Below, one piece after another: positions 46,269 through 64,000 of a DNA stretch of 64,000 bases (the first letter of the stretch is position 1; every line of letters starts with the position of its first letter). The position numbers were made by a program, and so were the translations under genes. Under the pieces are notes generated by a model. The model worked only from the letters and a program-made list of their open reading frames with translations. It did no database searches and had not been told where the DNA came from. Source of the stretch: Aeromicrobium erythreum (lineage in GTDB: Bacteria; Actinomycetota; Actinomycetes; Propionibacteriales; Nocardioidaceae); assembly GCA_036946185.1 (NCBI GenBank), contig JAQIJP010000018.1, forward strand, positions 6,349 to 70,348, in the 5' to 3' direction.

Positions 46269-46271
46269 GCG

Positions 46272-47674: not shown

Positions 47675-47715
47675 GCGCCCACGGTACGTCAGGACTGTGA
47701 CGTGGACCACAGGTC

Positions 47716-48900: not shown

Positions 48901-48984
48901 GGTCGCCCCCTTCTCCTCGTGTCCCCACTGTGTCGCATGGTCCAGCGCGCCGCGCGTCCGCATCGCGGACGAGAGGCGGCCGAA

Positions 48985-49014
48985 TTCATGCAGATGTGTT
49001 TATGTATGCATGAA
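48985..49014. promoter_or_regulatory. AT-rich inverted repeat, putative ArsR/SmtB operator
   Basis: TTCATGCA-N14-TGCATGAA upstream of the His-rich gene. Confidence 0.6.
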
Positions 49015-49046
49015 GAGCCTTTCCCCCCCGATCCTGAAGGACGCCC

Positions 49047-49343
49047 ATGACCACGACGCACGAGGTCCACGAGACCCACGACCACGAGCACGGCGAGGGC
49101 TGCGGCCACGTCGCCGTGAAGCACGAGGACCACGTCGACTACCTGCACGACGGCCACGCCCACCACGAGCACGACGGCCACTACGACGAGCACGAGGTCG
49201 ACGCCCACGTGCCGGCCGAGGACCACGACCACGAGCACGGCGAGGGCTGCGGCCACAAGACCGTGCAGCACGGCGACCACGTCGACTACGTCCACGGCGA
49301 GCACCGGCACGCGGCCCACGACGGCCACTACGACGAGCACTGA
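49047..49343 (+). CDS. His-rich putative metal-binding protein with two 39-aa repeats
   Basis: 28 His in 98 aa; HDHEHGEGCGH...HVDY...HDGHYDEH twice; SD GAAGGA. Confidence 0.85.
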   Translation: MTTTHEVHETHDHEHGEGCGHVAVKHEDHVDYLHDGHAHHEHDGHYDEHEVDAHVPAEDHDHEHGEGCGHKTVQHGDHVDYVHGEHRHAAHDGHYDEH

Positions 49344-49363
49344 GAACGACCCAGGAGGCGACC

Positions 49364-49669
49364 GTGCCGGACCCGCGACGAGAGCTCGACGTGCGGTACG
49401 GCGCGGTCGCCGACCTGTTCGGGGCCCTCGCCACGCCCGTCCGCGCCGCGATCGTGCACGCGCTCACGCAGCGTGCGTGGGGAGTCGGCGAGCTCGCCGA
49501 GGAGCTGGGCATCTCGCAGCCGCTCGCGTCGCAGCACCTTCGCACCCTGCGGACGGCGGGGCTGGTGGAGTCGGTCCGTCAGGGACGGTCCGTCGAGTAC
49601 GGCCTGGTCGACGATCACGTCGCCCACGTGTTCCTGGACGCGCTGGCGCACAGCGACGAGACGTCCTGA
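49364..49669 (+). CDS. ArsR/SmtB family metalloregulator
   Basis: FGALATPVR, ELGISQPLASQHLRTLR; C-terminal DDHV...ALAHSDE resembling an alpha5 metal site. Confidence 0.9.
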   Translation: MPDPRRELDVRYGAVADLFGALATPVRAAIVHALTQRAWGVGELAEELGISQPLASQHLRTLRTAGLVESVRQGRSVEYGLVDDHVAHVFLDALAHSDETS

Positions 49670-49679
49670 GGTCAGGACG

Positions 49680-49716
49680 CGACGAGGCCCCGGTCCGCTG
49701 GACCGGGGCCTCGTCG
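49680..49716. terminator. Hairpin between the ArsR gene and tRNA-Lys
   Basis: CGACGAGGCCCCGGTCC-GCT-GGACCGGGGCCTCGTCG. Confidence 0.75.
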
Positions 49717-49722
49717 TTCGGC

Positions 49723-49798
<76 letters not shown>

Positions 49799-49897
49799 GC
49801 GTTGTGCCGAGGTAAAACACTACCAGCCGATCCGGGTCGTCGCGAAATCAGGGGTCTGGTCGTGACGGAAGTCGGTGCGACGTGCTGCGATGGGTCC

Positions 49898-50437
49898 ATG
49901 AGCGACATGTGGACCGACGAGGCGACCGACCCGCGCACGTACGGGAACCCTGTCGGTGAGCTGGCGACGTACGTCGAGTACCTGGCGAACTACCGGATCA
50001 CCCTCGAGCTCAAGTGCCAGGACCTGACGCCGGAGCAGCTGGCGACCCGCAGCATCCCGCCGAGCACGATGAGCCTGCTCGGGCTGGTCCGGCACATGGC
50101 GCGCGTGGAGCACCACTGGTTCGAGCGGGTCGCCCAGGGCGTCGACGAGCCGCGGCTGTTCCACGAGCGTCGCGATCTCGACTTCGACGGGGCCCTCGGC
50201 ACGCAGGAGTGCGTCGACGACGCCTTCGCGTTGTGGCGTGCGCACGTCCGGCGCGCCGAGGAGTGGGTCGTGTCGCTCGACGAGTCCGACCTCGGCCGCG
50301 AGCTGCCGATGCCCGGCGCCGCCGACGAGACGGTCAGCATCCGCGACCTGCTGGTCCACATGATCGAGGAGTACGCACGGCACTGCGGCCACGCCGACCT
50401 GCTGCGTGAGTGCGTCGACGGGCGCACGGGGCAGTAG
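49898..50437 (+). CDS. DinB/DUF664 family protein
   Basis: SLLGLVRHMARVE, HMIEEYARHCGHAD. Confidence 0.9.
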   Translation: MSDMWTDEATDPRTYGNPVGELATYVEYLANYRITLELKCQDLTPEQLATRSIPPSTMSLLGLVRHMARVEHHWFERVAQGVDEPRLFHERRDLDFDGALGTQECVDDAFALWRAHVRRAEEWVVSLDESDLGRELPMPGAADETVSIRDLLVHMIEEYARHCGHADLLRECVDGRTGQ

Positions 50438-50486
50438 GCGCGTCGGTCCCTGGGCGCGCGGGTCCGGGGTGGCGCGGGCCCGGGGT

Positions 50487-50542
50487 GGACGAAGGATTCT
50501 GCATTCCGCACGACCGTTCGTGCGGGATGCAGAATCCTTCGT
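50487..50542. repeat. REP-like palindrome of the GGACGAAGGATTCTGCAT family
   Basis: GGACGAAGGATTCTGCATTCCGCACG is identical to 35611-35636 and is followed by an inverse arm. Confidence 0.85.
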
Positions 50543-50566
50543 GTCCCGCCCGGCATGTTCGCGGCG

Positions 50567-51403
50567 TCAGACCGAGCGAACGCGCTCCAGGATCGCGTCG
50601 GCGAGCGGGTCGGGCGCCTCGGTGGGGATCCAGTGCGAGACCCCCGGCAGCTCGACGAGCCGGTAGTCGGCCTGCACGAAGCGCTCGTTGCCGCCCAGGG
50701 ACTCGCGGCTCACGTAGAGGTCGCCGTCGCTCCAGACCATCGTCGTCGGGGCCTCGACCCGGGTCCCGCGGGTGCGGTCGGAGAACGGCATCGCCCGGTA
50801 CCAGCCGATCGCGCCGGGCAGGGCGCCGTCCTCGACGATGTCGTGCCGCACGCGGGCGATCGCGGCGCCGTCCATGCCGCCGGCGCGCATCCACGCCTCG
50901 GCCGGGCCACCCTTCCAGCGCGCCACGAGCTCGGGCAGCACGGGCACCTGGAACGCGAACATGTACCAGGACTTGAGCAGCTGCTTCGAGCCCTTGGCCG
51001 CGTGCATGAACGACGCCGGGTGCGGCACCGAGACGGCCGTCAGGGTGCGGACGAGCTCCGGCTTCGCGATCGCGAGCGACCACGCGACCATCGAGCCCCA
51101 GTCGTGCCCGACGACGTGGACGGGTCCGCCGACCTGCTCGACCAGGGCCGCGACGTCGTCGACGAGCAGCTCGACGCGGTAGTTCTTGCGACCGCGCGGG
51201 CGGGCGCCGGGGGAGTAGCCGCGCTGGTCCGGTGCGAGCGTCCGGTAGCCCTCGGCGTGCAGCCGCTCGGACACCGCCGCCCACGACGTCGCCCGCTCGG
51301 GGAACCCGTGCAGCAGGACGACGACCTCGCCGTCGATCGGGCCGGCGTCGACGACGTCGAACGTCAGGCCGTCGTGCCGGTAGGACGTGATGCGCTCGCT
51401 CAT
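50567..51403 (-). CDS. Alpha/beta hydrolase (epoxide hydrolase-like)
   Basis: LHGFP, DQRGYS, GHDWG, SHW. Confidence 0.92.
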   Translation of the reverse strand: MSERITSYRHDGLTFDVVDAGPIDGEVVVLLHGFPERATSWAAVSERLHAEGYRTLAPDQRGYSPGARPRGRKNYRVELLVDDVAALVEQVGGPVHVVGHDWGSMVAWSLAIAKPELVRTLTAVSVPHPASFMHAAKGSKQLLKSWYMFAFQVPVLPELVARWKGGPAEAWMRAGGMDGAAIARVRHDIVEDGALPGAIGWYRAMPFSDRTRGTRVEAPTTMVWSDGDLYVSRESLGGNERFVQADYRLVELPGVSHWIPTEAPDPLADAILERVRSV

Positions 51404-51446
51404 GCCCGCAGGATGGCACGCCGCCTCGGACGACCACCTCCCGGTT

Positions 51447-51495
51447 CGTGACCTTGTGGTCGCTTCAGCGCGCTCGAAGCGACCACATCGTCACG
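51447..51495. repeat. Intergenic palindrome / possible terminator
   Basis: CGTGAC..TGTGGTCGCTTC ... GAAGCGACCACA..GTCACG. Confidence 0.7.
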
Positions 51496-51500
51496 AGTCG

Positions 51501-52053
51501 TCAGGTCAGGTCCTCGACGCGGATGCTGTCGTAGTCGGTCGGCAGGTCGTCGGTGCTGCCGCAGGAGACCTCGCGGGTGTCGTCGACGTCGACGGACTTG
51601 CCGAGGCAGTCGGCGCTCGCGACCTCCTGGCCGCCGCTCAGGAACGTGATGGAGATCGACGGCGACGAGACGACGTTGCCCTGGTTGGTCGCCTCCAGGT
51701 CGGTGATCTGCAGGTCACCGAGCTCGTCGGCGGAGACCTTCCAGCCGGCCGCGTACCGGTAGCCGTCGATCTCGAACGCCGCGCCCTCCTGGACCGTCAC
51801 GGGCTTCGCGGGTCCGGAGGCCTTGCTGTTCTCGACGACGTTCTTGACGCCGTCGGCGGTCCGGCCGACCAGGTAGGCGATGCCGACGGCGCCCGCGACG
51901 ACGAGGACGGTGAAGAGGACCAGGACGTTGCGGACGGTGTGCTTCTTCCGCGGCGGCTTCCCACCGGTGTTCGGCACCCACGCGGTTGCCGTTCCAGCGG
52001 TAGCGCCCGTCGGGGCTGATCTGGCCGGTCGGCGACGGCTGCGGCGTGGACAT
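51501..52053 (-). pseudogene. Membrane-anchored hypothetical protein (DUF2510-like N-terminus) with a +1 frameshift at about 51986 (possibly a sequencing error)
   Basis: MSTPQPSPTGQISPDGRYRWNG is in one frame and TAWVPNTGGKPP...TM in another; they join if one base is removed. Confidence 0.7.
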
Positions 52054-52230
52054 CGGCTTCCCCCTGGGTCGGACGGTCGAGCGCGACCGATCGAACCAGG
52101 TCGGCGGTCGCGGCGGCAACTCCCGGTCGTGCGCGACCGATGTCCGATCTGGGCCTGTCCAAAACCGTCTTGACCGTCCGCGCGGTCCGGTGCAGGGTTC
52201 CTGCATCGACTGGCTGGATCGGGGGACGTC

Positions 52231-52746
52231 ATGGAGTCGTCGACGGATCTGTCGACTCGCGTGCGCGAGGCCGTGCGCGAGCGTCGGCTCGACCCACGCA
52301 CCCAGGTCGACGAGGTGCGCCGGCTCGCGCTCGACGCGGTCGCCGAGCACGAACGCCGTTCGCTGACCGGCGCGGTCCGGCCGCTCGACGAGCCCGAGCA
52401 CGTGGTCGGCCAGATCGTCGCCGACGTCAGCGGCTTCGGCCCGCTCCAGGCCTACCTGGACGACCCGACGGTCGAGGAGCTCTGGATCAACGCGCCCGAC
52501 CGCGTCTTCGTCGCGCGCCAGGGGGTCCACGAGCTGACCCCGACGGTGCTGACCGCCGAGCAGGTCCGCGACCTCGTCGAGCGGATGCTCCAGTCCTCCG
52601 GCCGTCGGCTCGACATCTCGCAGCCGTTCGTCGACGCGACCTTGCCGGGGGGCCACCGGCTGCACGTCGTGCTCGACGGGATCAGCCGCGGCTTCTCGGC
52701 GGTCAACGTCCGCAAGTTCGACAGACTCGCTGTTGACGTGGCTTGA
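52231..52746 (+). pseudogene. cpaF: 5' part of a CpaF/TadA pilus ATPase gene, interrupted after ...AVNVRKF
   Basis: GFGPLQAYLDDPTVEELWIN, RRLDISQPFVDATLPGGHRL, NVRKF; stops before any Walker A motif; composition changes at about 52720. Confidence 0.88.
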
Positions 52747-52761
52747 ACTGCATAAACGTGC

Positions 52762-53271
52762 TCACTCGGATTCCTCAGTCCGCATCGAGTCCGCATCAAT
52801 CAGACCTGCACCTGCCGCCGCTCGCCGGATGAAGGGTCTAGCCCGCGCATCGAGTCGCGCTAGTTCCGTCTCCAGTTGCCGCCACTGCGCGGCATTCGCC
52901 GGGACCAGTTCGAGGTAGTACTCAGTCGTCCCGTCGGGTCGCCTGTCTTTCTTCGCGCGCGATCCGATCGGCATGCCCCTCGTGATCCCTCCGCGCGAGG
53001 ACCCTACGACGCCCCAAGTCGAATGGATGAGTTGATGCCTTCTTTCCAGTGAGACCTCGCACTCTTGAAGCCACTGGGCCAGATCTACGGAGCCGGTGCT
53101 CTTGGCGGTCTTCGCGAGTTTTTCTCGGGCGACTGATGGTCGGGTCATGAGCTGTGTGACGTTGGCCTTGTTGCCGTCAAGAAGGACGTGCAGCATGCAT
53201 AGGCTGCTCTCAAGCGCTGTCGCGGCGATAGCGACGCGACCGATGGCTGCGTAGTGCTCTTCAGTCAGCAT
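52762..53271 (-). CDS. Hypothetical protein, HEPN-like
   Basis: AIGRVAIAATALE helix and an RxxxxH motif (RHQLIH); start overlaps the integrase 3' end. Confidence 0.6.
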   Translation of the reverse strand: MLTEEHYAAIGRVAIAATALESSLCMLHVLLDGNKANVTQLMTRPSVAREKLAKTAKSTGSVDLAQWLQECEVSLERRHQLIHSTWGVVGSSRGGITRGMPIGSRAKKDRRPDGTTEYYLELVPANAAQWRQLETELARLDARARPFIRRAAAGAGLIDADSMRTEESE

Positions 53272-54358
53272 GTCGGACCTCCGTCGCTGCTGCTCCAAGC
53301 ACGCTGTCGACGGCGGCCCGGGTCTGGTCGTCAGAGTCTGGCCAGAGGTGAGAGTAGGTGTCCAGGGTTTCCTTGGCGGACGCGTGGCCGAGCCGAGCCT
53401 GCACGACCTTCACGCTCTCGCCGTGACGGATGAGCAGTGAGGCGTAGTAGTGCCGCAGGTCGTGCAAGCGCGTGCCGGGTGGAGCGCCCGCCGTCGAGGC
53501 GGCAGCACGGAACGCTCGCGTGACGTAGTCGCGGTTCAGCATCGACCCGTCGGCGGCCGTGAACAGCATGTCGTGCTGGCCGGTGCCGTAGGTCTCCAGG
53601 TGCCGGGCGAGTGCGTCGATGACGACCTGGGGGAGCGGCACGCTCCGGTAGCCCGACTCCGACTTCGGGGGGCCCCGAACGTGTGCGGCCCGCGTCAGCA
53701 ACAGCTGCTGGTCGACGCGAAGGGTTCGGCGCAGGAAGTCCACGCGGTCTAGCACGAGGCCGGCGGCCTCGCCGGGGCGAAGGCCGGTCCCGGCCATCAG
53801 AGTGATGAGCGCGCGCCAGTGAGGCGGCATCGCGTCGGCCAACCGATGCACGACCCCGGTCTCCAGTGGCACGATCGTCGGCCGGCGGACCGAAGGCAGC
53901 TTCACGCCCTCGGCCGGGTTCACTCCGATGATGCGGTCGACGTGGGCAGCCTTGAAGACGGACCGAGCATGCTGGAACGTCACCCGGACGGTCGACGGGG
54001 CGAGCGACCGCGTCATGTCGTGAACCCAGGCCTCGAGCTCAGTGCGACGGATGTTGGCGATCGGACGATCCCCAAACCGCGGGAACGCGTGGACCCGGAG
54101 CGCGCTGTTCACGGCCGCGGTCGTGTTCGCGCGATGGATGCGGGTGGTCTGCCACTGCGTGGCGTACTCGCGGAACGTGATGCGTCCGGCCCTCGGGTCG
54201 ACGTAGGCGCCGGTCAATACTGAGGCCGTGACCTCGTCGAGCCAGCGCTGCGCGTCGACCTTGCGGTCGAAGTGACGGGCGTGCTCCTTGCCGGTGTCAT
54301 CGCGATACCTAGCGCGCCAACGGCCGTTGGGTCGCTTGGCGATGTTGCGGCTAGCCAT
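53261..54358 (-). CDS. int: Tyrosine recombinase / phage integrase
   Basis: Arm-binding WRARYRD; TGLRPGE, PKS, LHDLRHYYAS, LGHAS, TLDTYSHLW. Confidence 0.95.
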   Translation of the reverse strand: MASRNIAKRPNGRWRARYRDDTGKEHARHFDRKVDAQRWLDEVTASVLTGAYVDPRAGRITFREYATQWQTTRIHRANTTAAVNSALRVHAFPRFGDRPIANIRRTELEAWVHDMTRSLAPSTVRVTFQHARSVFKAAHVDRIIGVNPAEGVKLPSVRRPTIVPLETGVVHRLADAMPPHWRALITLMAGTGLRPGEAAGLVLDRVDFLRRTLRVDQQLLLTRAAHVRGPPKSESGYRSVPLPQVVIDALARHLETYGTGQHDMLFTAADGSMLNRDYVTRAFRAAASTAGAPPGTRLHDLRHYYASLLIRHGESVKVVQARLGHASAKETLDTYSHLWPDSDDQTRAAVDSVLGAAATEVRHAD

Positions 54359-55094
54359 CGTGATCACCGTGGCGCAGATGCTCAAGCAGTTCCAGGGCTT
54401 CCGGTGTCATCGCGCCGCCGCGCCGGCCGTGCCCGGAACTCGTAAAGAGGCGCGGATCGGACTTGTGACGTGCCCAGGTGAGGAGGTCCCGAAGAGAGGA
54501 CCGGCTGATACCGAGGTCGGCGGCTAGTTCGTCCATGGTCACATCGCTCGCGTAGGCGGCTTCGATCGCAGCGAGGGTCTCGAGCTTCTCTCGGAGCGAA
54601 AGCTTCGGGGGCCGGCCGACCTTCTGATTGCTCTCGAGCAGCATCGCCACCTGTGCTGGCTGGAGGCGCTCAGCCTGGCGGCTGCGGCTCACGGCCGAAC
54701 GGAGGCCGCGCAGCAGCTGTGACTCGGACGCTTCTTCGAAGACGTACCGCGGCATGCCTCTTCCGCTGGCTGCAGCAGGTGGCAAGCGATCGCCGCCGGT
54801 CATGTCGTCGAACATCAACCGGGCCAGCTGGGTGTGCATGACATCGCCTGCTGCGCCGGCCACGTCCTCGACTCGCCTGACGCGTAGATCGACGCAGGTG
54901 GGGTCGCCCGAAGCGTTAGGACGGAACAGGCTCACGACAATCCAGCCGGGATGTGGCTCGCGGCCGCCGGCTGACGGACTCGCCGTCGATTGGCGCTGAA
55001 TCCGAGCTCGTGCGGCTCGGTCGTAGACCAGCGCCCAGGCTCCGAGCATGTCGTCGGGCCCTTCCAAGTAGGTCGGAACAAGCGCGTCAGGCAT
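54351..55094 (-). CDS. Hypothetical regulator with a C-terminal HTH
   Basis: VGRPPK and TMDELAADLGISRSSLRDLL; coupled to int and divergent from the excisionase. Confidence 0.65.
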   Translation of the reverse strand: MPDALVPTYLEGPDDMLGAWALVYDRAARARIQRQSTASPSAGGREPHPGWIVVSLFRPNASGDPTCVDLRVRRVEDVAGAAGDVMHTQLARLMFDDMTGGDRLPPAAASGRGMPRYVFEEASESQLLRGLRSAVSRSRQAERLQPAQVAMLLESNQKVGRPPKLSLREKLETLAAIEAAYASDVTMDELAADLGISRSSLRDLLTWARHKSDPRLFTSSGHGRRGGAMTPEALELLEHLRHGDHDG

Positions 55095-55104
55095 GACGGG
55101 CCAG

Positions 55105-55174
55105 GAAATGTCGTGCGGTCATTTCTCAACTCTAGACATGAGTCGTGAAACTCGTCAACGGGAACACCCGTTGA
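55105..55174. promoter_or_regulatory. Divergent control region with inverted repeats
   Basis: GAAATG-N9-CATTTC (55105-55125); TCAACGGG-AACA-CCCGTTGA (55155-55174) abutting the RBS of the excisionase gene. Confidence 0.55.
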
Positions 55175-55187
55175 AAGGACCCGAATC

Positions 55188-55373
55188 ATGGCGGAGTACA
55201 TGACCACCGAAGAGGTGGCTGAGTTGGCGCGGACCAAGCCAGAGACCGTTCGCTACTGGCGGCACATCAGAAAGGGGCCGGCAAGCTTCAAGGTCGGCCG
55301 GCGTGTGCTGTACGCCAGAATCGACGTCGAGAAGTGGCTCGAGGACGCGCGAGCAGCGGCGGTGTCGGGGTGA
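55188..55373 (+). CDS. Excisionase/AlpA-like HTH protein
   Basis: YMTTEEVAE, TVRYWR, GPASFKVGRRVLY. Confidence 0.9.
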   Translation: MAEYMTTEEVAELARTKPETVRYWRHIRKGPASFKVGRRVLYARIDVEKWLEDARAAAVSG

Positions 55374-57274
55374 TCGAGACCGACGAAAGCCGCCCCGGCC
55401 AGGAGACCGAGGCGGCACAGACGTTTGGCGGCGTCGACAGCATCCTAGGCGAACCTCCTCGCTTGAAGGCGTACCTCGATGAGGACGAGGACCAGCTCTG
55501 GATCTGGTGCACGCACGAACGCCTCTGGCACCGGCACGGCCGAGGCGATGGCCACCGGACCGCGCACTGCCGTTGCGAGCACAGTCCCTACCACGCGGTC
55601 GGATACGAGTTGGTCGAGGTTGGGCCGCTGACCGATGAAGTCCTCGCGCAGCATCGAGAGACGAGCTGGATCGACGGCTGCCGCCCGAGGAACTGCCGCG
55701 TCCGTCGCCGAGAGGTGCGGGTCGCGCGACAGAGTCCGCACCTGCTGCCGGCGCCAGACGCTCCGCTCGAGGTAGCGAGGGCCGTCGCGCGCAGCTACGC
55801 AGACCCGACCTACATCGAGGACCTCGCGGCCGAGGACGACATGCTCGCCCTTTTCGACTCCCCGAACGCGCCTGCTTGGGTGCCGCGAGGTGCGATGCCG
55901 TACTCCGTGAGCATGCACGGCCAGCTGCCGCTGCGGTTCTGGCGCGGGCAGTGGATGCGGTGGCAGAAGAGTCACTGGAGCGAGCTCAGCGACGACTCCT
56001 TCAAGTCCGAGCTCTACGAGCTGCTTGGCGGCGCGTCCTTCGAGAAGACCAAGCCAGACGGCAGCAAGAAGGCGCTGCCGTGGAACCCGAACCGACGCAC
56101 CGTCTCCGAGCTGCTGGCGGCGCTGGAGGCGATCGCGCTCATCCCGCCAGAGGTGGATGCCCCGAGTTGGCTCACCCTGTCGGGATCGTCGCGGATGGTG
56201 GCGTGCGCGAATGGGCTGCTCGACCTGTCGACGCGCCAGCTCCACGACCATGACCCGGACTGGTTCAACCTCGTCGCCGTGCCCTTCGACTACGACGAGC
56301 ACGCCCCGCCGCCGGCGCGCTGGCTGCAGTTCCTGGACCAGCTCTGGCCGGGCGATCCGCACGCCATCGCCGCGCTGCAGGAGTGGTTCGGCTACGTCCT
56401 CTCGGGCCGCACGGACCTGCAGAAGCTCTTCCTGCTCATCGGTCCGCCGCGCTCGGGCAAGGGCACGATCGTGCGCATCCTGCAGGCGCTCGTCGGTCGC
56501 GGGAACTACACCGGACCGACGCTCAACTCCCTCGGCACCAACTTCGGCCTGCAGCCCCTGATCGGCAAGCCGCTCGCCGTCGTCGCCGACGCTCGCCTCA
56601 GCGGACGAGACACCCACGTCGTCGTCGAGCGCCTGCTGTCCATCAGCGGTGAGGACACGCTGACGATCGATCGCAAGTACCGAGATCCGTGGAGCGGCCG
56701 GCTCCCGACCCGGATCATGGTGCTGAGCAACGAGCTGCCCTACTTCGGCGACGCCTCGGGGGCGATCGCCACTCGGTTCATCGTCCTGACGCTCCAGACG
56801 TCGTGGCTCGGTCGCGAGAACATCGGACTCGAGCCGGAGCTCAAGGCTGAGCTCCCGGGGATCCTCTCGTGGGCACTCGATGGACTCGAGCGGCTCCAGG
56901 TCAACGAGCGATTCACCGAGGCGGCATCCGCCACCGATTCGGTCCTGGCCATGCACGACAGCGCCTCACCAATGTCAGCGTTCATCAGGGACCGGTGCGA
57001 GGTCGGCGCCGGCCACGAGGTGGCCGTTCGGACGCTGTTCGATGCGTGGCGCGGTTGGTGCCTCGACAACGGCCGGGACAAGCCAGGCAGCTTGCAGACC
57101 TTCGGCCGCTCGCTCCAGGCCGTGCTCCCGCAGGTCAAGGTCACGCGCCCGCGCGACGAGGCCGGCAATCAGGTGCGCACCTACACCGGTGTGCGTCTGA
57201 GTCGCCCTGAGTCGCGACACATCTCATTGTCAGCTCAGATCGCCCCTCAACTTCCCCTCGGAGGCTCCCAGTGA
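55370..57274 (+). CDS. P4/D5-family (SF3) helicase with a Cys/His-rich N-terminal domain
   Basis: ANGLLDL, LQEWFGY, Walker A GPPRSGKGT, ISGED, LSNELP; C-terminal winged-helix-like LFDAWRGWC. Confidence 0.88.
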   Translation: MIETDESRPGQETEAAQTFGGVDSILGEPPRLKAYLDEDEDQLWIWCTHERLWHRHGRGDGHRTAHCRCEHSPYHAVGYELVEVGPLTDEVLAQHRETSWIDGCRPRNCRVRRREVRVARQSPHLLPAPDAPLEVARAVARSYADPTYIEDLAAEDDMLALFDSPNAPAWVPRGAMPYSVSMHGQLPLRFWRGQWMRWQKSHWSELSDDSFKSELYELLGGASFEKTKPDGSKKALPWNPNRRTVSELLAALEAIALIPPEVDAPSWLTLSGSSRMVACANGLLDLSTRQLHDHDPDWFNLVAVPFDYDEHAPPPARWLQFLDQLWPGDPHAIAALQEWFGYVLSGRTDLQKLFLLIGPPRSGKGTIVRILQALVGRGNYTGPTLNSLGTNFGLQPLIGKPLAVVADARLSGRDTHVVVERLLSISGEDTLTIDRKYRDPWSGRLPTRIMVLSNELPYFGDASGAIATRFIVLTLQTSWLGRENIGLEPELKAELPGILSWALDGLERLQVNERFTEAASATDSVLAMHDSASPMSAFIRDRCEVGAGHEVAVRTLFDAWRGWCLDNGRDKPGSLQTFGRSLQAVLPQVKVTRPRDEAGNQVRTYTGVRLSRPESRHISLSAQIAPQLPLGGSQ

Positions 57275-57389
57275 CCAGGTTCAAGAGGTCTAGTACGGGA
57301 GACATTAGGAAAAGTCGCGTCTCAGAGCGGCTCAGGGGCGAGCCGCCGGCGAAGCAATGGGCGGCGAAGCAGCGATCGGCAGGCGCATC

Positions 57390-57683
57390 GTGAGCGACGA
57401 CTTCCGGCCACAGCGCCCCGTGCAGCCGCTTCACGAGCTGCTCAAGCACATCGCCGAGCTCGAGGCCGCCGGCCGGTCGGTGCCGTGCGTGAACCCGATC
57501 GTCGGGCACTACTGGCTGTCGGAGGACCGCGAGTTCCAGGCGGCGGCCGTGGCGGGTTGTCAGAGCTGCCCCGCGCTCCAGGCGTGCGCCGCGTACGTCG
57601 ACCGCAACCCCGAGCCCGGGGGCGTCTGGGCGGGCCGGCCCCCTGTGCATGGGACTCAGAGGAGGCGCGATGCCGACGGCTGA
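57390..57683 (+). CDS. WhiB family Fe-S regulator
   Basis: C..CQSCPALQAC and GGVWAG. Confidence 0.85.
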   Translation: MSDDFRPQRPVQPLHELLKHIAELEAAGRSVPCVNPIVGHYWLSEDREFQAAAVAGCQSCPALQACAAYVDRNPEPGGVWAGRPPVHGTQRRRDADG

Positions 57684-58077
57684 CGGCGCGTACCTGGTCC
57701 GCCCGGGCTCGGTCATCGTCGAGCCACACCTGGCGGGCTTCGCCTGGGACGCGGTGCGCCAGCACGCAGAGAGACGACGCCGCAACGGATCGCGCCTGCG
57801 ACCCGATGAGGAGGCCCTGCTGCAGGTCCTGCGACGGGCCGCCGGCGAGCACCTCCGCGCGACGCCGAACGGACATCGCGGACACGTTTCTCGGTCAGGC
57901 GCGGACATGGCCCCATCGTCAGAACTGACCACCAAGCAAGCCGCAGAGGAGCTCAACGTGAGCACACGCCACTACCGACGACTCGCCAACGCGGCGAACG
58001 TCAGCCCACTCGGCCGCAACCGGTGGCACCGCGACGACCACCTCGCGATCACCGCCCACTGGAAGGACGCCTCATGA
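57670..58077 (+). CDS. Hypothetical protein with a C-terminal HTH
   Basis: SD GGAGG; LTTKQAAEELNVSTRHYRRL. Confidence 0.75.
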   Translation: MPTADGAYLVRPGSVIVEPHLAGFAWDAVRQHAERRRRNGSRLRPDEEALLQVLRRAAGEHLRATPNGHRGHVSRSGADMAPSSELTTKQAAEELNVSTRHYRRLANAANVSPLGRNRWHRDDHLAITAHWKDAS

Positions 58078-58808
58078 CGATCACCCCCCTGCCCCCGATC
58101 AACGAGAACCCCCTGATCACCACCGCTCACCAGATCCGCCAGCAGTACACCGACGAGATCGCTGTGGCTCGCGCCCGAACCGACCTCGCCGACCTGCAGA
58201 AGGCCGAAGCGATCATCGACTTCTGGAGGCGCTGCCGCGACGCACTGCGCAAGGCCGAGGCCGAGCTCCGCCAGGAGTACCGAGACCAGCACGACGCCAT
58301 CAACGAGCTGTTCCCCTTCGGCCCCGACAACAGCGCGAGCAACCCGGCGGACCGCACCGTCATGCAGGAGGCCTTCCACCGCCAGCTCGACGTCGCACGC
58401 GAGGCGCAGACGCTCGCGGCCAACGACCCCTCACGTCGACAGTCGTTGCTCAACGACGCGGTCGCGTTCGACGACGACACGCTGCTGCGCGCGATCCTGA
58501 CCGCCGCCTCCCAGGCCCGCGACGACAAGTTCCTCCGCGGCTGGGCGAGCGGCCGGCCCGAGTTCGAGGGGCTGCTGCCGGAGCTGCTGCGCGTCCGTGA
58601 GTTCCTCATCGGCCTGTCCGCCGAGGCTCTCATCGCTCACCAGGTCTTCGCCCCGCTCGAGGAGCCGACGCGTGAGGTTGAGGACCTACCTCGCCTCGAA
58701 CGTGCACGTGACGCCGCCGAGGCCGAGATGGCAGCGCAGCGACGTGGTCGCCCGCAGGTCGTCGATCCCAACCTCCCGACGTTCGGGGTGGCCGGGGGAG
58801 TGCGCTGA
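58074..58808 (+). CDS. Hypothetical alpha-helical protein
   Basis: ATGA overlap, SD GAAGGA, GC3 bias. Confidence 0.75.
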   Translation: MTITPLPPINENPLITTAHQIRQQYTDEIAVARARTDLADLQKAEAIIDFWRRCRDALRKAEAELRQEYRDQHDAINELFPFGPDNSASNPADRTVMQEAFHRQLDVAREAQTLAANDPSRRQSLLNDAVAFDDDTLLRAILTAASQARDDKFLRGWASGRPEFEGLLPELLRVREFLIGLSAEALIAHQVFAPLEEPTREVEDLPRLERARDAAEAEMAAQRRGRPQVVDPNLPTFGVAGGVR

Positions 58809-59254
58809 TGGCGACGCGCGAGGCGAGTGGCCGTCCGCAGCCCAGCAACTGGCGCACCACCGAGCGCCGCATCCTCGAGCGCGACGAGTACCGCTGCTAC
58901 CTCGGCTCCCACGACGCGACCACGGTCGACCACATCGTGCCCGTTGCTCGAGGCGGCAGCCACGACGACGACAACCTGGCCGCCATCTGCCAGCCGTGCG
59001 CCGAAGATCGGGCATTCCTGGCGCACCGCGTCCCAGGCGGAGCTCTGACAGCCGTTGACCTTGCCCTGGTTGATCTTTGGAGTCGAGCCTGCGCTCGAGT
59101 GCTGACCGTGGCGGAGGTCCTCGACGAACACCGGAGACTCCTCGGCGGACGCGTTGACGCCGAGACCCCCTCCCCCCACCTCCGGCCGTGCGGTTCACCT
59201 AGCGGTGCAGATTCAGCTAGGTCTTCGGCCGCCGATTTTCTCGGAGACCGCTGA
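58808..59254 (+). CDS. HNH endonuclease-like protein
   Basis: ILERDEYRC, TVDHIVPVARGGS, DNLAAICQPC. Confidence 0.82.
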   Translation: MATREASGRPQPSNWRTTERRILERDEYRCYLGSHDATTVDHIVPVARGGSHDDDNLAAICQPCAEDRAFLAHRVPGGALTAVDLALVDLWSRACARVLTVAEVLDEHRRLLGGRVDAETPSPHLRPCGSPSGADSARSSAADFLGDR

Positions 59255-59256
59255 GC

Positions 59257-59697
59257 ATGCGTCTGTGCTCCGAATGTGACGAGAAGTTCGCCTGGTCCCG
59301 GCCTGAGGGGCAGCGCGGACGCCCGCCCGGATTCTGCTCGGACCGTTGCCGCGCTGCCGCGCGCGCTCGGCGACGGCGCAAGGGTCCAGCGCCTGTCGAG
59401 GTGCGCCGTGCGGGGTCCCGCAAGGGAGGCCAGGCCCGCTGGCAAGGCGTGCCCGCAGCCGAGCGGACGGCGGCCGCGCGTGCGGCAGCGCTGAGTCGGG
59501 GCACACCGGAACGCCGCGCTGAGATCGCAGCCCGCCAGGCCGAGCTCGCCCTCAGACGCCAGGCGCCGTGCCCGTTCTGCGGCGAACCGGTCGGAAGCGC
59601 CCGCCGGGTCACCTGCGCTCGAATCGACTGCACCCTGGCCCGCCGAGCTGAGCGAGCGCGCACCCGTCACGCGGCAGCGAGCGAGGCCCGGGCATGA
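59257..59697 (+). CDS. Basic double Zn-finger hypothetical protein
   Basis: CSEC...GRPPGFCSDRCR and CPFCG...TCARIDC. Confidence 0.65.
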   Translation: MRLCSECDEKFAWSRPEGQRGRPPGFCSDRCRAAARARRRRKGPAPVEVRRAGSRKGGQARWQGVPAAERTAAARAAALSRGTPERRAEIAARQAELALRRQAPCPFCGEPVGSARRVTCARIDCTLARRAERARTRHAAASEARA

Positions 59698-60005
59698 GCG
59701 CGGAGGAGATGCGTGAGCGCCTGATCCCGCTCTTCGAAGGTCTGCGCGGGGCGATGGTCACTGTCGAGGCGACCGGCGATCCGACGATCGCCTTCACCGA
59801 GTTCATGACCGTGTTCAGCGACGACCTCAACGAGGCGCACACACGCGGACCCGACGCTGTGCTGCGCACGTACGAAGGCATCTTCGGCGTGCTGGGCAGC
59901 GCCGTCTTCAACCTTGTCGGGCTCGCCGCAGCTCTCGACGGAGTGCCGCCCGACCAGCTGCTCGAGCAGGTCCTCATCACCCTGAAGGAGAACCGAGATG
60001 CCTGA
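59694..60005 (+). CDS. Hypothetical acidic protein directly upstream of the TMP-like gene
   Basis: ATGA overlap upstream; overlaps the TMP-like start. Confidence 0.7.
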   Translation: MSAEEMRERLIPLFEGLRGAMVTVEATGDPTIAFTEFMTVFSDDLNEAHTRGPDAVLRTYEGIFGVLGSAVFNLVGLAAALDGVPPDQLLEQVLITLKENRDA

Positions 60006-62180
60006 CGACGACATCATCGTCGGCTCAGCCGCCGTCGAGATCAACGCGACCACCCGCGGCTTCATCGCGGACCTGCGCGCGCAGATCGAGCCGGGCGTGC
60101 GGCAGCTCGCGGAGAACCTCGGCAAGGTCCTCGAGGACAAGATTGCCGCCGGCATCGCGAAGGGCACGGGCCAGGGGTTCACCACGGCCGAGCCGCTCGC
60201 GAAGCAGAAGGGCAAGCAGTCCGGCGAGGGCTTCGGCGGCGAGTTCGGCCGCCAGGCCCAGGCCCGCATCCGCGCGGGCCCTCGCCGCGCTGCCCGAGGC
60301 CAAGATCGGCGTGGCCAAGACCGAGGCCGAGCAGAAGCTCAAGGACCTCCGCGCCGAGATCGCCTCCCTCGGCGACAAGCGCATCGGCGTCGACATCGAC
60401 GCGGCCGAGGCCAAGGCGAAGATTCTCGAGCTGCAGGCCGAGCTCGCCGCGCTCGCCGCGCGATCGCCGGACATCGACGTCCGCGTGAACACCGCGGCGG
60501 CCGCGGCCGAGCTCGCCGCCTTCAGCGCCGCGATCGACCCGCTCCTCGACGCCGGCAGCGGACTCCCCGCTCTCGGCAGCGCCGGCAGCCGAGCTGCGGC
60601 TGGTACGTCGAGCGTCGCCGCGTCCTTCGGTGCGACCGCCGTGGCCGGCGCCGGACTGCTGGCAGTCCTCTCGCCCGTCCTCGGAGCACTCGGCGGCATC
60701 ATCGCCGCCCTCGGCGCCCCGCTCGGCGCCGCCACCCGCCGGCGGCACGCTCTACGCTCTGCTGGCCGGCAAGGCGATCAAGGACACGAACAAGGTCGCC
60801 AAGCAGATCGACGAGCTCCGCAAGAAGGCCGACACCCTCCAGGACCCGAAGGCAGCCCAGGCCGCCCGCGACCAGGCCAAGGCCCTCGAAGACTCGCTCA
60901 CCGGCCCGCAGAAGCGGTTCCTCGAGGCCAAGTCCGAGCTCTCCAAGGCCTTCGGCGAGTTCATGGACGGCCCCGCCGGCGACGCGGTGTTCGACCCGAT
61001 CGTCTCTGGCATGGAGCTGCTCGAGAAGATCCTGCCCAAGGTCAGCCCGCTCCTGGTCGAGACCAGCGACGCCGTCTCCGACCTCCTCGACAGCCTCGCG
61101 AAGAAGGCCGGCGGCTCCGACGAGTTCTTCGAGAGCCTCGGCAAGCTCGCAGGCGACGGCATCCGCGATGGTGGCCGCACGCTCGGCAATCTGGCGGGCG
61201 CGATCTCGTCGGTTCTGGAAGCTGGTTCCGACACCGGCGCCGCGGCCATGGACTCCATCGCCGACGGCGCGGAGCGGCTCTACAAGTACCTCAAGTCCCC
61301 GGAAGGCCAGGAGCAGCTCGAAGAGTTCTTCACCTGGCTCGAGGAACACGGTCCCGGCATCGCCGAGAACATCGGAGACCTGGCCGAGTACTTCGTGAAC
61401 TGGATGATCAGCGCCGCGCCGGTCGGTGAGCAGCTGCTCGACCTCGCGGGCGATGCCGCGAAGTTCGGCACCGCGATCACCAAGGTCGTGCGTCCTGTCT
61501 ACCGCTTCGCCGACGCCATCGACGCGGCGAAGGCGTTCACGTTCCCGCTTCGCCTCGGACTGTCCGGAATCATCGAGGCGGCAGCCGGCGTGATGACGGT
61601 CTTCGGCAAGATGCTCGGCGCACTGGCGCGCATCCCAGGCGACAAGTTCGAGTGGGCGCGCGAGGGCGCACGAGAGATGGACAAGGCCGCCGCCGATGCG
61701 CGCGGACTGGCGAAGGACGTCCGCGCTATCCCCGGCAAGAAGACGATCTTCGTCAAGGCGGAGACCGCCGAAGCGAAGCGCGCCATCAAGAACCTCATCG
61801 ACGCGGCCGAGTCCTGGGTGGTGAACCTGCCGATCGTCGGCGAGAAGGCCGGCGGCAACGCCAAGGGCACCAACAACTGGCGCGGCGGCTGGTCCTGGGT
61901 CGGCGAGGAGGGCCCCGAGCTGATGCGTCTGCCCGCGGGCACGCAGATCCGCTCCAACCCCGACTCGATGGCCATGGTCCGCGCGTCGGCACCCGCTCCG
62001 GCAGCCGTCATGGCCGCCACTGCCGGACCGTCCCTCGGCTTCGACCTCGGCCAGCTCGAGCCGAGCCTGCACGTCATCTCGGCCGAGACCAACCTCGACA
62101 CCGGCACGATCGAGGTCCTCGTGGAGGCCCACCTGGACAACCTCGTCGACTTCAACGACCAGCAGGATCGGTGGGAGTGA
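59998..62180 (+). CDS. Tape-measure-like protein (about 726 aa once two +1 frameshifts at about 60277 and 60736 are corrected)
   Basis: N-terminal IVGSAAVEINATTRGF; Ala/Gly-rich helical body; C-terminal NAKGTNNWRGGWSWVGEEGPEL. Confidence 0.75.
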
Positions 62181-62229
62181 GCGATGGGTCGTCTAGAGGG
62201 GACTGTCCCCGGGCGGTCCTAACCTTGAC

Positions 62230-62700
62230 ATGTACCCACCGAGCAACTCGCCGCTTCACCTGGAGGTCGGCCAGAGCACGTGGACGCCGCCGGCCGTCGC
62301 CTACGACGCGATCTGGTCGCTGACAGGTGACGAACCGGTCGTCGCGTCGTGCTGCCAGCGCACGCCCGAGGGCGCTAGCGGGGACTTCATCGCGTTCGCT
62401 GTCACGCCGACCCGGCTGGTCCGCGTGGTCGTAGAGGGCGAAGACGCTGATCGGGGCGAGCTCATCGCGGCCGACTCGTACTGGCTCGCTGACTCTCGGT
62501 CGATGCACGTTCTCCGCGTCCGAGAGCGGCGAACGGGTGAAGGCCGCGGTTGGAGCGCCGACTATGAGGTCGTCTTCGGCGACGTGCCCGTAGAGCTCCC
62601 GCGTGCAACGGAGTCTGGATTTGACGACGAGCGTCGTCGGATTGAGCTGATCACCTCGGCTGTGCGGGACGCCCGTTGTGGCGGAGGCGCTGCCTCGTGA
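62230..62700 (+). CDS. Hypothetical cargo protein
   Basis: ORF whose stop overlaps the next start (GTGA). Confidence 0.55.
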   Translation: MYPPSNSPLHLEVGQSTWTPPAVAYDAIWSLTGDEPVVASCCQRTPEGASGDFIAFAVTPTRLVRVVVEGEDADRGELIAADSYWLADSRSMHVLRVRERRTGEGRGWSADYEVVFGDVPVELPRATESGFDDERRRIELITSAVRDARCGGGAAS

Positions 62701-62903
62701 AGGTCACCGCCTACGCCACCCGCTCCGACGGCTGGTGGTCCGTCACCGTCCCTGAGGTCGACGGCGCCCTCACACAAGCTAGGAGTCTCGAGGAAGTGCC
62801 CGGCATGGTGGCCGATGCTGTCTCGCTTCTGGAGGACGTCTCCGTCGACGACGTCGAGGTCACGGTGGTGCAGGTCGCCGCGGCAAAGGCCGAAGGCTTG
62901 TGA
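62697..62903 (+). CDS. HicB-like antitoxin domain protein
   Basis: RSDGWWSVTVPEVDGALTQARSLEEVPGMVADAV. Confidence 0.75.
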   Translation: MKVTAYATRSDGWWSVTVPEVDGALTQARSLEEVPGMVADAVSLLEDVSVDDVEVTVVQVAAAKAEGL

Positions 62904-63235
62904 CGAAGTCCAGCCGCCGGCGCCGGCCACCCACCCCTGCGCAGCTGGCGCGCAAGGAGGCCCGGAAGCAGGCCGGCCTCCAGGCCGCGAAGCTCGAGCC
63001 CCTGCGGCCCGTGAAGGTGACGAGCCGGAAGTCGTCCGACGGTGCCCCGTTGCTCGAGGACGGTCAGGTCTACGCGACGCGGGGCGGGACCGTATTCCAC
63101 CCCGGCTGGTGCGGAACCGTCGGCGACCTCTGGGACAGGCACCCGACGTCGCTGCTCGTGGTGCTGCGGTCCGAGGTCGGCAGCCGCCGGGAGTGCCAGA
63201 ACTGCGCCTTGTACCCGCTGACCGGCAACTTCTAG
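62900..63235 (+). CDS. Hypothetical protein with a possible metal site (H..WC...CQNC)
   Basis: GTGA overlap; VYATRGGTVFHPGWC, ECQNC. Confidence 0.55.
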   Translation: MTKSSRRRRPPTPAQLARKEARKQAGLQAAKLEPLRPVKVTSRKSSDGAPLLEDGQVYATRGGTVFHPGWCGTVGDLWDRHPTSLLVVLRSEVGSRRECQNCALYPLTGNF

Positions 63236-63297
63236 GCGGTGTCGCACGATCCGCCGTTTCACTGCGGCCCGGGCGTAGCGAGTCCTACCCTGCTCGG

Positions 63298-63870
63298 ATG
63301 AGCGAGAACGACGAGGCTGCCCAGCCGCAGCCCGAGGCCGTCACCCGCGCCTGCCGGAAGTGCAGTGCCGTCAGCACCACCGAGGGCGCCTTCTGCCCGC
63401 AGTGCGGCACGCCGTTCATGCGCGGCCAGAACAAGAAGGGCCGGCGCAGGCTCGTCGCGTTGGTTGCCGCGATCCTCGTCCTCGCACTGGCCGGCGGAGG
63501 CGCGGCGTACGCGTTCAAGGAGAAGTCCGACCGTGACGCGGCGGCAGCCCAGGCTGATCGTGAGCGGGCCGCCAAGCGCGCCGACGACGCGAAGCGCGCG
63601 GAGCGCCAGGAGTACGTGAAGTTCCTCGAACAGACCATCACCAAGGACGCGAAGAAGGACTACGACCCGGACGGCCTCATCGACAAGAAGGTCAAGGAGA
63701 CCTCCTGCACGGCGACCGGCGGGGGATCCGTCGACGACCTCACCGCCCTGACGGGCACCTTCGAGTGCATCGCGGCGCACACGATCAAGGACGGCACGAT
63801 GACCGGCTTCCGCTACTCCGGCACGATCGACTGGAACACCGGAGACGTCACCTGGAAGCTCGGAGGCTAG
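63298..63870 (+). CDS. Zinc-ribbon membrane protein
   Basis: CRKC...FCPQCG, TM segment, external domain with 2 Cys. Confidence 0.8.
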   Translation: MSENDEAAQPQPEAVTRACRKCSAVSTTEGAFCPQCGTPFMRGQNKKGRRRLVALVAAILVLALAGGGAAYAFKEKSDRDAAAAQADRERAAKRADDAKRAERQEYVKFLEQTITKDAKKDYDPDGLIDKKVKETSCTATGGGSVDDLTALTGTFECIAAHTIKDGTMTGFRYSGTIDWNTGDVTWKLGG

Positions 63871-63935
63871 ACCGGCGTCGAGTGCCCGCCAAGTACCCCA
63901 ATAGATCGACTACTGAGAAGACCTAGGACCCCAGG

Positions 63936-64000
63936 ATGCCCAAGCTCACGATCGAGTTGCCGAGCAACAACAAGATCAACAAGGCCGGCAAGTTCCTCCG
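63936..64000 (+). CDS. Start of an ORF (MPKLTIELPSNNKINKAGKFLR), possibly a RelA/SpoT-domain protein; truncated by window
   Basis: S-x3-I-N-K-A-G-x2-L resembles the N-termini of mobile small alarmone synthetases; only about 21 codons visible. Confidence 0.4.
   Translation, partial: MPKLTIELPSNNKINKAGKFL

What the first reader, a model, noticed from the sequence alone, without database searches (positions are those of the whole stretch)
52231..52760. Element integrated inside the Tad-pilus ATPase gene cpaF: possible excision-controlled pilus switch
Seen: CpaF-like sequence and host-like codon usage end at ...GTC CGC AAG TTC G (52720), followed by 8 unrelated codons and a stop. The ATPase domain is absent. 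Established: tyrosine-integrase islands most often target tRNA/tmRNA ends and restore the target. Elements that split a gene and restore it on excision act as switches (comK prophage, sigK skin, mutL SpyCI), and Tad pili can be phage receptors. Inference: integration inactivates the pilus, which could exclude pilus-dependent phages, and excision would restore it.
Basis: partly seen in the sequence, partly recalled or inferred. Interest (0 to 1): 0.78.

Follow-up and report, generated by a model that had tools for sequence, protein, structure and literature searches.

The report
Two mobile elements split cpaF
The Tad-pilus motor gene cpaF of this Aeromicrobium genome is cut by two unrelated mobile elements that each always land at their own fixed codon of this gene, a well-supported example of the known habit of such elements to insert into pilus and DNA-uptake genes.

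Summary
cpaF stops being cpaF at window 52720, after ...NVRKF, and 8 foreign codons and a stop follow. This junction is a genuine attL. Integrases 64-80% identical to the window's tyrosine integrase sit at the same codon in six other assemblies from four further Nocardioidaceae genera. In four complete cases a 13-18 bp repeat, (A)ACATCCGCAAGTTCG, flanks a 13-21 kb element carrying a tape-measure-like gene, and removing the element in silico restores cpaF.

The 3' half of cpaF lies on another contig (C42), but it starts 126 bp further on, at the Walker A lysine codon. There it abuts a large serine integrase. That integrase belongs to a second, small element (replication gene, integrase, defence cargo) that occupies this same codon in five other assemblies. 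The 126 bp between the two junctions is not in the assembly. An independent metagenome contig shows the same tandem layout with the middle piece intact.

So the gene is split, and excision could in principle restore it, but both elements would have to leave. A regulated switch is untested. Durrant et al. 2022 already reported that serine-integrase elements favour competence and type II/IV secretion ATPase genes. This scan has also noted tadA/cpaF splits in three other genomes. I class this as a new member of a known kind.

The parts
52231..52720 (+). cpaF (Tad pilus ATPase) 5' fragment, residues 1-163, ending ...AVNVRKF
   Evidence: 68-79% aa identity to intact orthologues in most same-genus genomes. 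Weak T2SSE match to model positions 4-88.
52705..52720 (.). attL core AACGTCCGCAAGTTCG of the tyrosine-integrase element
   Evidence: The same core is a 13-18 bp direct repeat at both ends of four complete related elements, and it is the breakpoint in two further contigs.
52721..52746 (+). Eight element-encoded codons (DRLAVDVA) plus the TGA that ends the truncated ORF
   Evidence: Related attL arms also bring a stop about 25-30 bp after the core.
52762..53298 (-). 178-aa ORF between the integrase and attL, no family match
   Evidence: No hit in Pfam, PHROGs or PADLOC. L068 has a 161-aa ORF in the same position.
53261..54385 (-). Tyrosine integrase of the cpaF-targeting clade
   Evidence: PF00589 9e-23 and PF22022. 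Homologues of 64-80% identity all lie beside a cpaF 5' fragment.
54351..55094 (-). Candidate HTH regulator
   Evidence: Only weak DUF134 and HTH_10 matches.
55334..57274 (+). D5-type primase/helicase
   Evidence: PF19263, PF08706 and PF03288. No close homologue elsewhere in the genus.
57357..57683 (+). WhiB-like regulator
   Evidence: phrog_9926, 5e-9. A weak WhiB-like gene (Pfam Whib) lies in a similar place in L068.
57649..58077 (+). Candidate excisionase-type HTH
   Evidence: phrog_66 at 4e-4, weak. L068 has HTH_17 genes in the matching positions.
58808..59254 (+). HNH endonuclease
   Evidence: PF01844, 1.5e-9.
60143..62180 (+). Tape-measure-like gene, readable only across at least two frames
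   Evidence: PHROG tape-measure hits. Homology to the uninterrupted genes of L068 and L071 falls in two frames. Frame plot.
63936..64000 (+). Start of a RelA/SpoT-like candidate defence gene (PDC-S33) that runs past the window end. It is split over two frames.
   Evidence: PADLOC PDC-S33 at 2e-22 and 5e-18 for two overlapping ORFs. Pfam RelA_SpoT. The homologue lies about 1.2 kb from attR in the G303 element.
52721..64000 (.). Body of the tyrosine-integrase element. It continues to the end of contig C18, 1183 bp past the window.
   Evidence: GC 0.62-0.70 against 0.71-0.75 in the host. No attR on C18.

Best explanation
Window 52705-52720 is the attL of a phage-related integrative element. The element carries a tyrosine integrase, a regulator, a D5 primase-helicase, WhiB, an Xis-like HTH, HNH, a tape-measure-like gene and defence-like cargo. 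Its integrase recombines a ~16-bp core inside cpaF, at codons N-(I/V)-R-K-F.

About 170 bp downstream in the same gene, at the Walker A GGC|AAG codons, sits a second, unrelated element. It is small and consists of a rolling-circle-type Rep, a large serine integrase and anti-phage cargo (AbiTii plus an Mrr/HNH nuclease). Its attR is at contig C42:6119-6123, 22 bp from the integrase start codon.

Each element family uses its own fixed site in cpaF across species. While either is integrated, the Tad ATPase, and with it the downstream tadB/tadC/tadE pilus function, is off.

Shown: the junctions, their recurrence in other assemblies, and in-silico restoration of cpaF in complete relatives.

Inferred: the two elements lie in tandem on one chromosome, with attR(Tyr), a ~170-bp cpaF middle piece and attL(Ser) in the assembly gap. 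Also inferred: each can excise through its own integrase plus a directionality factor.

The likeliest reason for the choice of target is that cpaF offers conserved, dispensable sequence, and that its loss may help the element by removing a DNA-uptake pilus or phage receptor. A host-programmed switch is less likely.
For: 1. 5' fragment.
2. 3' fragment: it lies on C42, begins at GKTTLLN and is followed by T2SSF and TadE genes. It is collinear with relatives, leaving exactly 126 bp (42 aa) unaccounted for.
3. Tyrosine clade at the same codon: L068 (80% identity...AVNVRKF|DKWATEAV*), L069 (70%), G284, G303, G375 and G397 (64-69%). Direct-repeat cores of 13-18 bp flank elements of 12.9-21.1 kb. Full ORFs are restored in silico.
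4. Serine integrase: Resolvase + Recombinase + Zn_ribbon domains. Homologues of 86-97% identity sit at the identical Walker A site in A. stalagmiti, Aeromicrobium sp. Root472D3 and three metagenome contigs. Joining attL and attR restores GGTQAGKTT.
5. Mobility: the G000 and G124 element genes are 93.6-93.8% identical in DNA while the host cpaF is 76-78% identical.
6. Tandem layout: the independent contig L078/L082 reads attR core AACATCCGCAAGTTCG, then cpaF residues VARAH...GGTQAG, then attL of the serine element.
7. The C18 tail matches a gene that lies about 1.2 kb from attR in the G303 element.
8. Cargo and Rep annotation.
Against: - attR of the tyrosine element, attL of the serine element and the 126-bp middle piece are absent from the assembly.
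- The genome is a 65%-complete, 65-contig assembly, so the two cpaF halves could come from two strains.
- No reads could be examined.
- One 67% integrase homologue (G095) has no cpaF core within 1.5 kb.
- The tape-measure-like gene and the PDC-S33-like gene of this copy are frame-broken. This copy may therefore be decaying, or the assembly may carry errors.
- No directionality factor was identified for the serine element.
- There is no direct evidence of excision anywhere.
Confidence: 0.8

Rival explanations
1. Excision-controlled pilus switch. The element or elements leave cpaF under particular conditions, restore piliation and re-integrate, as in comK/phi10403S active lysogeny or the sigK skin element.
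For: - Insertions are precise, and the halves are free of stops and frameshifts in all six complete cases.
- Integrases are intact, and Xis-like genes are present in the tyrosine family.
- In three MAGs, contigs break within 13 bp of the serine core. That is what a population mixing occupied and empty sites would give.
Against: - No excision product, attP or empty site was observed for any of these strains.
- In this genome two elements would have to leave.
- cpaF is also hit by an IS110 (G076), reduced to a remnant (G010) or not found in about ten genus members. So the gene is often simply lost.
- The element is horizontally mobile rather than domesticated.
Confidence: 0.2
2. One composite element plus a 126-bp deletion. 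The tyrosine and serine modules belong to a single insertion, the middle of cpaF has been lost, and the gene is permanently dead in this genome.
For: The 42 codons are found nowhere in the assembly. Both contig ends next to the gap have low GC. Several genes of the tyrosine element are frame-broken.
Against: - Both junctions coincide to the base with the natural att sites of two independent element families. A deletion would not be expected to recreate that.
- A contig with both elements and the intact middle piece exists.
- The C18 tail appears to stop about 1 kb short of the expected attR.
Confidence: 0.08
3. Two strains in one bin. One strain carries only the tyrosine element and another only the serine element, and the bin mixes their contigs.
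For: This is a metagenome-type assembly. Other Aeromicrobium MAGs show contig breaks or second alleles at these sites.
Against: - Estimated contamination is 0.26%.
- Both contigs run straight through their junctions. With two abundant alleles they would be expected to break there.
- There is no second copy of either cpaF half.
Confidence: 0.15
4. Assembly chimera at 52720.
For: No positive evidence. It could not be excluded by reads.
Against: The same breakpoint beside a homologous integrase appears in six independent assemblies, including complete genomes.
Confidence: 0.01

Closest known systems
Large-serine-recombinase elements with intragenic attB, surveyed by Durrant et al. 2022 (PMC10083194)
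   Same: That survey found distantly related serine integrases converging on one conserved site in a gene. [quoted passage not shown] The C42 integrase has the same three-domain architecture.
   Different: The survey does not name cpaF/tadA or Nocardioidaceae in the text I could read. Here the exact core (Walker A GGC|AAG), the Rep+Int backbone with swappable defence cargo, and co-occupancy with a tyrosine-integrase element are documented.
Listeria comK prophages (A118/phi10403S), B. subtilis skin (sigK) and SPbeta (spsM). Recalled from my own knowledge; reviewed in PMC8987985.
   Same: An element with its own recombinase splits a host gene precisely, and excision rebuilds the ORF.
   Different: For those elements, regulated excision and a host benefit are shown experimentally. 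Here nothing beyond sequence is known, and the elements are mobile between species.
Lambda/L5-type tyrosine-integrase prophages and satellites of Actinobacteria
   Same: PF00589 integrase at the element end. Direct-repeat core of 13-18 bp. Inverted TGACCTGCG/CGCAGGTCA motifs flank the core. Xis-like HTH genes are present.
   Different: The target is the middle of a protein-coding gene rather than a tRNA 3' end, and the element does not supply a replacement 3' end. The gene content (a tape-measure-like gene without visible head genes in the 13-kb forms) is unusual. One relative (L069) does have portal and protease genes.
Actinomycete integrative and conjugative elements (pSAM2 type). Recalled from my own knowledge.
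   Same: Small Int + Rep backbone integrated in an actinobacterial chromosome.
   Different: The 5-6 kb elements have no FtsK/TraB-type transfer gene. They use a serine rather than a tyrosine integrase, and an intragenic rather than a tRNA target.
Earlier notes of this scan on other genomes (e1-5268770, e1-2127699, e1-5267738)
   Same: They report a Tad ATPase gene split at the Walker A lysine codon by serine-integrase islands, and at a 15-bp repeat by tyrosine-integrase islands.
   Different: Those are single insertions in other lineages. I did not re-examine them.

Membership tests
CpaF/TadA (T2SSE, PF00437) Tad pilus ATPase | T2SSE fold with the N-terminal domain and Walker A/B ATPase core | tested here: met
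   Taken together, the 5' fragment (window) and 3' fragment (C42) align end to end with intact orthologues, apart from 42 missing residues. The C42 piece matches T2SSE positions 154-278 at 2e-21.
CpaF/TadA (T2SSE, PF00437) Tad pilus ATPase | Placement in a tad operon (tadB/tadC T2SSF genes, TadE pseudopilins) | tested here: met
   T2SSF and TadE genes lie directly downstream on C42 and are collinear with relatives.
Tyrosine-integrase site-specific integrative element | PF00589 catalytic domain integrase at the element end | tested here: met
   The gene ends 541 bp from the junction.
Tyrosine-integrase site-specific integrative element | Identical core repeated at attL and attR | tested here: inconclusive
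   In this genome only attL is assembled. The feature is met in four complete relatives, with 13-18 bp cores.
Tyrosine-integrase site-specific integrative element | Excisionase | tested here: inconclusive
   Only a weak phrog_66 hit for 57649-58077. HTH_17 genes are present in the 80% relative.
Large serine recombinase (serine integrase) element | Resolvase + Recombinase + Zn-ribbon domains | tested here: met
   (C42:4696-6096, outside the window).
Large serine recombinase (serine integrase) element | Short crossover core, no long repeat, imperfectly palindromic attP, precise attB restoration | tested here: met
   G049 and G124 share only GGCAA/GCAAG at attL and attR, and joining them restores GGTQAGKTT. 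In G000 only attR is assembled.
Large serine recombinase (serine integrase) element | Recombination directionality factor | not tested
   I did not look for one. To my knowledge these factors share no common family.
Gene-interrupting regulatory switch (active lysogeny, skin-type) | Precise interruption of an otherwise intact gene | tested here: met
   for the six complete relatives. Inconclusive for G000 itself because the middle piece is missing.
Gene-interrupting regulatory switch (active lysogeny, skin-type) | Condition-dependent excision that restores function | not testable with these tools
This needs PCR or culture work.
AICE (pSAM2-type) | FtsK/TraB-type conjugative transfer gene | tested here: not met
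   No such ORF or Pfam hit in the 5.0-6.2 kb elements.

The most novel reading that the evidence does not exclude
In Nocardioidaceae, cpaF may be an evolved landing pad. At least four recombinase lineages each own a codon-level att site in it: the tyrosine clade at RKF, and three serine-integrase lineages at nt ~305, at Walker A and at residue ~343. Elements stack there in tandem, build a defence island inside the gene, and silence a Tad pilus that serves DNA uptake or phage adsorption. Excision would give reversible, element-controlled phase variation of piliation.
Probability: 0.2. Interest if true: 0.7.

Novelty: new member of a known kind. Interest (0 to 1): 0.48.

Why it matters
This case gives base-level att sites for two integrase families, one tyrosine and one serine, that target a conserved pilus-motor gene. 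It also shows that such elements can stack in one gene and bring anti-phage cargo with them.

Several cultured strains carry complete copies: Aeromicrobium sp. Root472D3, A. stalagmiti YC3-14, Nocardioides dokdonensis and Marmoricola sp. Leaf446. The open question is therefore directly testable in culture: do these elements silence the Tad pilus for their own benefit (blocking DNA uptake or phage adsorption), or do they act as reversible switches? The serine integrase, with its defined ~46-bp attP and its attB, is also a candidate tool for high-GC actinobacteria.

Tried and rejected
- Contig-end overlap between C18 and C42: none.
- Junction or core repeats elsewhere in the assembly: none.
- Search for the missing 42 residues by tblastn: only paralogues found.
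- Search for the serine element's left arm in the assembly: none.
- The look-up of encoding contigs with the genome's own proteins: nothing on record.
- Metagenome scan with the Mrr/HNH cargo protein: no close relative.
- Genus-wide search with the primase: no relative.
- Within-genus homologues of the tyrosine integrase (up to 67% identity): none next to cpaF and none next to a tRNA. This first suggested that the junction might be a deletion scar. The wider protein search overturned that reading.
- An apparent continuation of cpaF past the junction in L069 was a spurious BLAST extension.
- Literature searches for cpaF as an attB: nothing specific.
- I considered a dN/dS test on the split genes and dropped it, because insertion ages are unknown and it could not separate the hypotheses.

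Full report
**Setting.** The window is G000:C18:6349-70348. The assembly has 2.44 Mb in 65 contigs and is 65% complete. Database titles of the closest relatives place it in Aeromicrobium, family Nocardioidaceae.

- ORF 52231-52746 encodes 163 residues that align with the N-termini of intact ~420-aa cpaF orthologues at 68-79% identity in most same-genus genomes.
- Similarity ends at ...AAC GTC CGC AAG TTC G (52720). Eight foreign codons and TGA follow.
- GC drops from about 0.72 to 0.62-0.70.
- Downstream lie a tyrosine integrase (53261-54385, minus strand), a weak HTH gene, a D5-type primase-helicase, WhiB-like and Xis-like genes, an HNH endonuclease and a tape-measure-like gene.

**Where the rest of cpaF is.**
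- A T2SSE search of the whole genome found a 214-residue open frame at C42:6119-6754. It starts at GKTTLLN, the Walker A lysine, and is followed by T2SSF and TadE genes.
- Against complete relatives the two fragments map to one orthologue and are collinear downstream. Exactly 126 bp (42 residues, VARAH...VSGGTQA) are missing between them.
- That piece is nowhere in the assembly.
- Directly upstream of the C42 fragment, with its ATG 22 bp from the junction, is a 466-aa large serine recombinase.
- It lies in DNA of 58-63% GC that also encodes a REP_ORF2-G2P replication protein, an AbiTii protein and an Mrr_N/HNH nuclease.

**The serine-integrase element is cpaF-specific.**
- Integrases 97% and 86% identical sit at the same place in A. 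stalagmiti YC3-14 and Aeromicrobium sp. Root472D3. Both cpaF halves are present there, flanking elements of 5.0 and 6.2 kb.
- attL reads ...CAGGCGGGCAA|element and attR reads ...TTGGCAA|GACGACG. Joining them gives GGTQAGKTT and a full ORF.
- Three metagenome contigs with integrases of 86-91% identity show the same junction.
- The backbone (Rep plus integrase) is conserved, while the cargo differs and is often defence-like: AbiTii plus HNH; an NsnA/GmrSD-like nuclease; an AAA_15/21 ATPase; a ScoMcrA-like nuclease; and, in A. stalagmiti, an AraC/DJ-1-type regulator.
- Element genes of G000 and A. stalagmiti are 93.6-93.8% identical in DNA while their cpaF genes are 76-78% identical. The element therefore moved between species recently and landed on the same codon.
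- In three further Aeromicrobium MAGs, contigs end within 13 bp of this core. One ends exactly at GGCAAG.

**The window's tyrosine-integrase junction is also a real att site.**
- Within the genus the nearest integrase homologues (up to 67% identity) are not beside cpaF. For a time this made a deletion scar plausible.
- The large protein search changed that reading.
  - An 80% homologue on a Logan contig lies in a similar gene order (helicase, WhiB, HTH_17, tape-measure gene). Its contig ends in ...AVNVRKF|DKWATEAV*.
  - A 70% homologue in a Nocardioides MAG prophage lies beside a 180-aa cpaF fragment ending ...AVNIRKF|AGGVLSAV*.
- A family-wide search found four more homologues at 64-69% identity: in Mumia, an unnamed genus, Marmoricola sp. 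Leaf446 and Nocardioides dokdonensis. In every one cpaF is split at this codon.
- In those four, attL and attR share a direct repeat of 13-18 bp, (A)ACATCCGCAAGTTCG(T), with TGACCTGCG/CGCAGGTCA-type motifs on either side. The elements measure 12.9-21.1 kb, and deleting them in silico restores a full cpaF with Walker A.

**Putting the two together.**
- In this genome the two junctions lie at the natural sites of two unrelated element families, 126 bp apart. The simplest reading is tandem occupancy: cpaF(1-163), tyrosine element, cpaF(about 164-205), serine element, cpaF(206-end).
- Under that reading, attR(Tyr), the middle piece and attL(Ser) lie in the gap between C18 and C42.
- Two results support this.
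  - A contig from an unrelated sample, seen in 17 runs, shows this architecture with the middle piece intact...GCAGGTC...AACATCCGCAAGTTCG TCGCGCGG...GGGACGCAGGCAGGGAA GGCGACAAACTG....
  - The last gene on C18, a frame-broken RelA/SpoT-like PDC-S33 candidate, has a homologue about 1.2 kb from attR in the G303 element. C18 therefore probably stops about 1 kb short of its attR.
A two-strain bin or a deletion cannot be excluded. I give them about 0.15 and 0.08.

**cpaF is a crowded target.** Across 117 genus representatives and the contigs fetched I also saw:
- a 12.2-kb element with another serine integrase and a Prim-Pol helicase at nt ~305 (G036), and a contig that starts at the same position in G006;
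- an IS110 at nt ~288 (G076);
- a remnant cpaF beside a truncated tadB (G010);
- a third serine recombinase inserted at residue ~343, in a contig that also carries the Walker A element (L081);
- about ten genomes with no orthologue detected.

**What it does.**
- While an element is integrated, cpaF cannot make an ATPase, so this tad operon should give no pilus.
- Excision is plausible mechanistically. The integrases are intact, the tyrosine family has Xis-like genes, the serine element has a Rep gene for a circular form, and the gene halves are clean in six complete cases.
- No excision product was seen, and the gene is often simply lost in this genus.
- Published work points to a benefit for the element. 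[quoted passage not shown] They proposed that blocking transformation is a common strategy (PMC10083194).
- In Micrococcus luteus, another actinobacterium, tad genes are required for natural transformation (PMC4322843). Whether the Aeromicrobium Tad pilus takes up DNA or serves as a phage receptor is unknown.
- I rate a regulated, host-serving switch at about 0.2.

**Novelty.**
- Gene-splitting integrative elements and their bias towards this protein family are known.
- This scan has noted Tad ATPase splits in three other genomes. I did not re-examine them.
- New here: the two exact att sites in Nocardioidaceae, convergence of tyrosine and serine integrases on one gene, tandem stacking, and the small Rep+integrase backbone with exchangeable defence cargo.
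- My verdict is a new member of a known kind, of moderate interest.

Noticed in passing
window 60143-62180 and L017:11284-12031 (window 63936 onward): The tape-measure-like gene and the RelA/SpoT-like PDC-S33 candidate of this element are each readable only across two frames. Their homologues in L068, L071 and L072 are single ORFs. This is either decay of this copy or indel errors in the assembly.
   Followed up: partly
L036:4150-16380 (G036:C1): A 12.2-kb element splits cpaF precisely at nt ~305 (GAGCCC|TCACGG). It carries a different large serine recombinase (36% identity), a Prim-Pol/AAA_25 helicase and a small resolvase. A G006 contig starts at the same position.
   Followed up: partly
L081:7544-9417 (JGI 3300066008 contig): A contig that carries the Walker A element has a second, frame-broken serine recombinase inserted further down cpaF, after ...LLAGDN (residue ~343). 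FtsK-like and sortase genes follow. This is a second example of stacked elements in one cpaF gene.
   Followed up: partly
L057:2960-5600 (G076:C1): An IS110-family transposase insertion of 2.6 kb lies in cpaF at nt ~288, between GTCGAG and GAGATC.
   Followed up: partly
L058:6183-9359 (G010:C1, complete genome): Only cpaF residues ~32-101 remain. After 2.4 kb of unrelated DNA comes a tadB lacking its first ~98 residues. The tad locus is degraded, starting near the nt ~305 site.
   Followed up: no
L059:2305-5327 (G128:C1): An intact cpaF is preceded, 1 kb upstream, by an extra copy of its first ~254 codons (86% identity to the query). Origin unexplained.
   Followed up: no
L025 and L026 (G038 = A. 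marinum DSM 15272; G053): Homologues of the serine integrase (59-70% identity) are not in cpaF. The conserved GGTACATTAACAA arm next to their start codon is followed by a sequence resembling the other arm of attP (..TGTGTGTACC). The site may therefore be an unrecombined attP inside some other element.
   Followed up: no
L082/L083 (Logan SRR30758778 contig, 26.4 kb): The element upstream of the cpaF middle piece spans at least 17 kb of mostly defence-type genes: MmeI/Eco57I/ResIII, ApeA, T4 endonuclease IV-like, UvrD plus DUF2290, and another 595-aa serine recombinase. The cpaF site can therefore grow into a large defence island.
   Followed up: partly
window 44000-52230: The genes upstream of cpaF (beta-lactamase-like, mycothiol S-transferase, alpha/beta hydrolase) are not syntenic with the upstream regions of cpaF in four other Aeromicrobium genomes. 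Downstream synteny is kept.
   Followed up: partly
G000:C18 last 300 bp (beyond the window): A 39-bp inverted repeat lies at the very end of contig C18. It may be why the assembly stops there.
   Followed up: no
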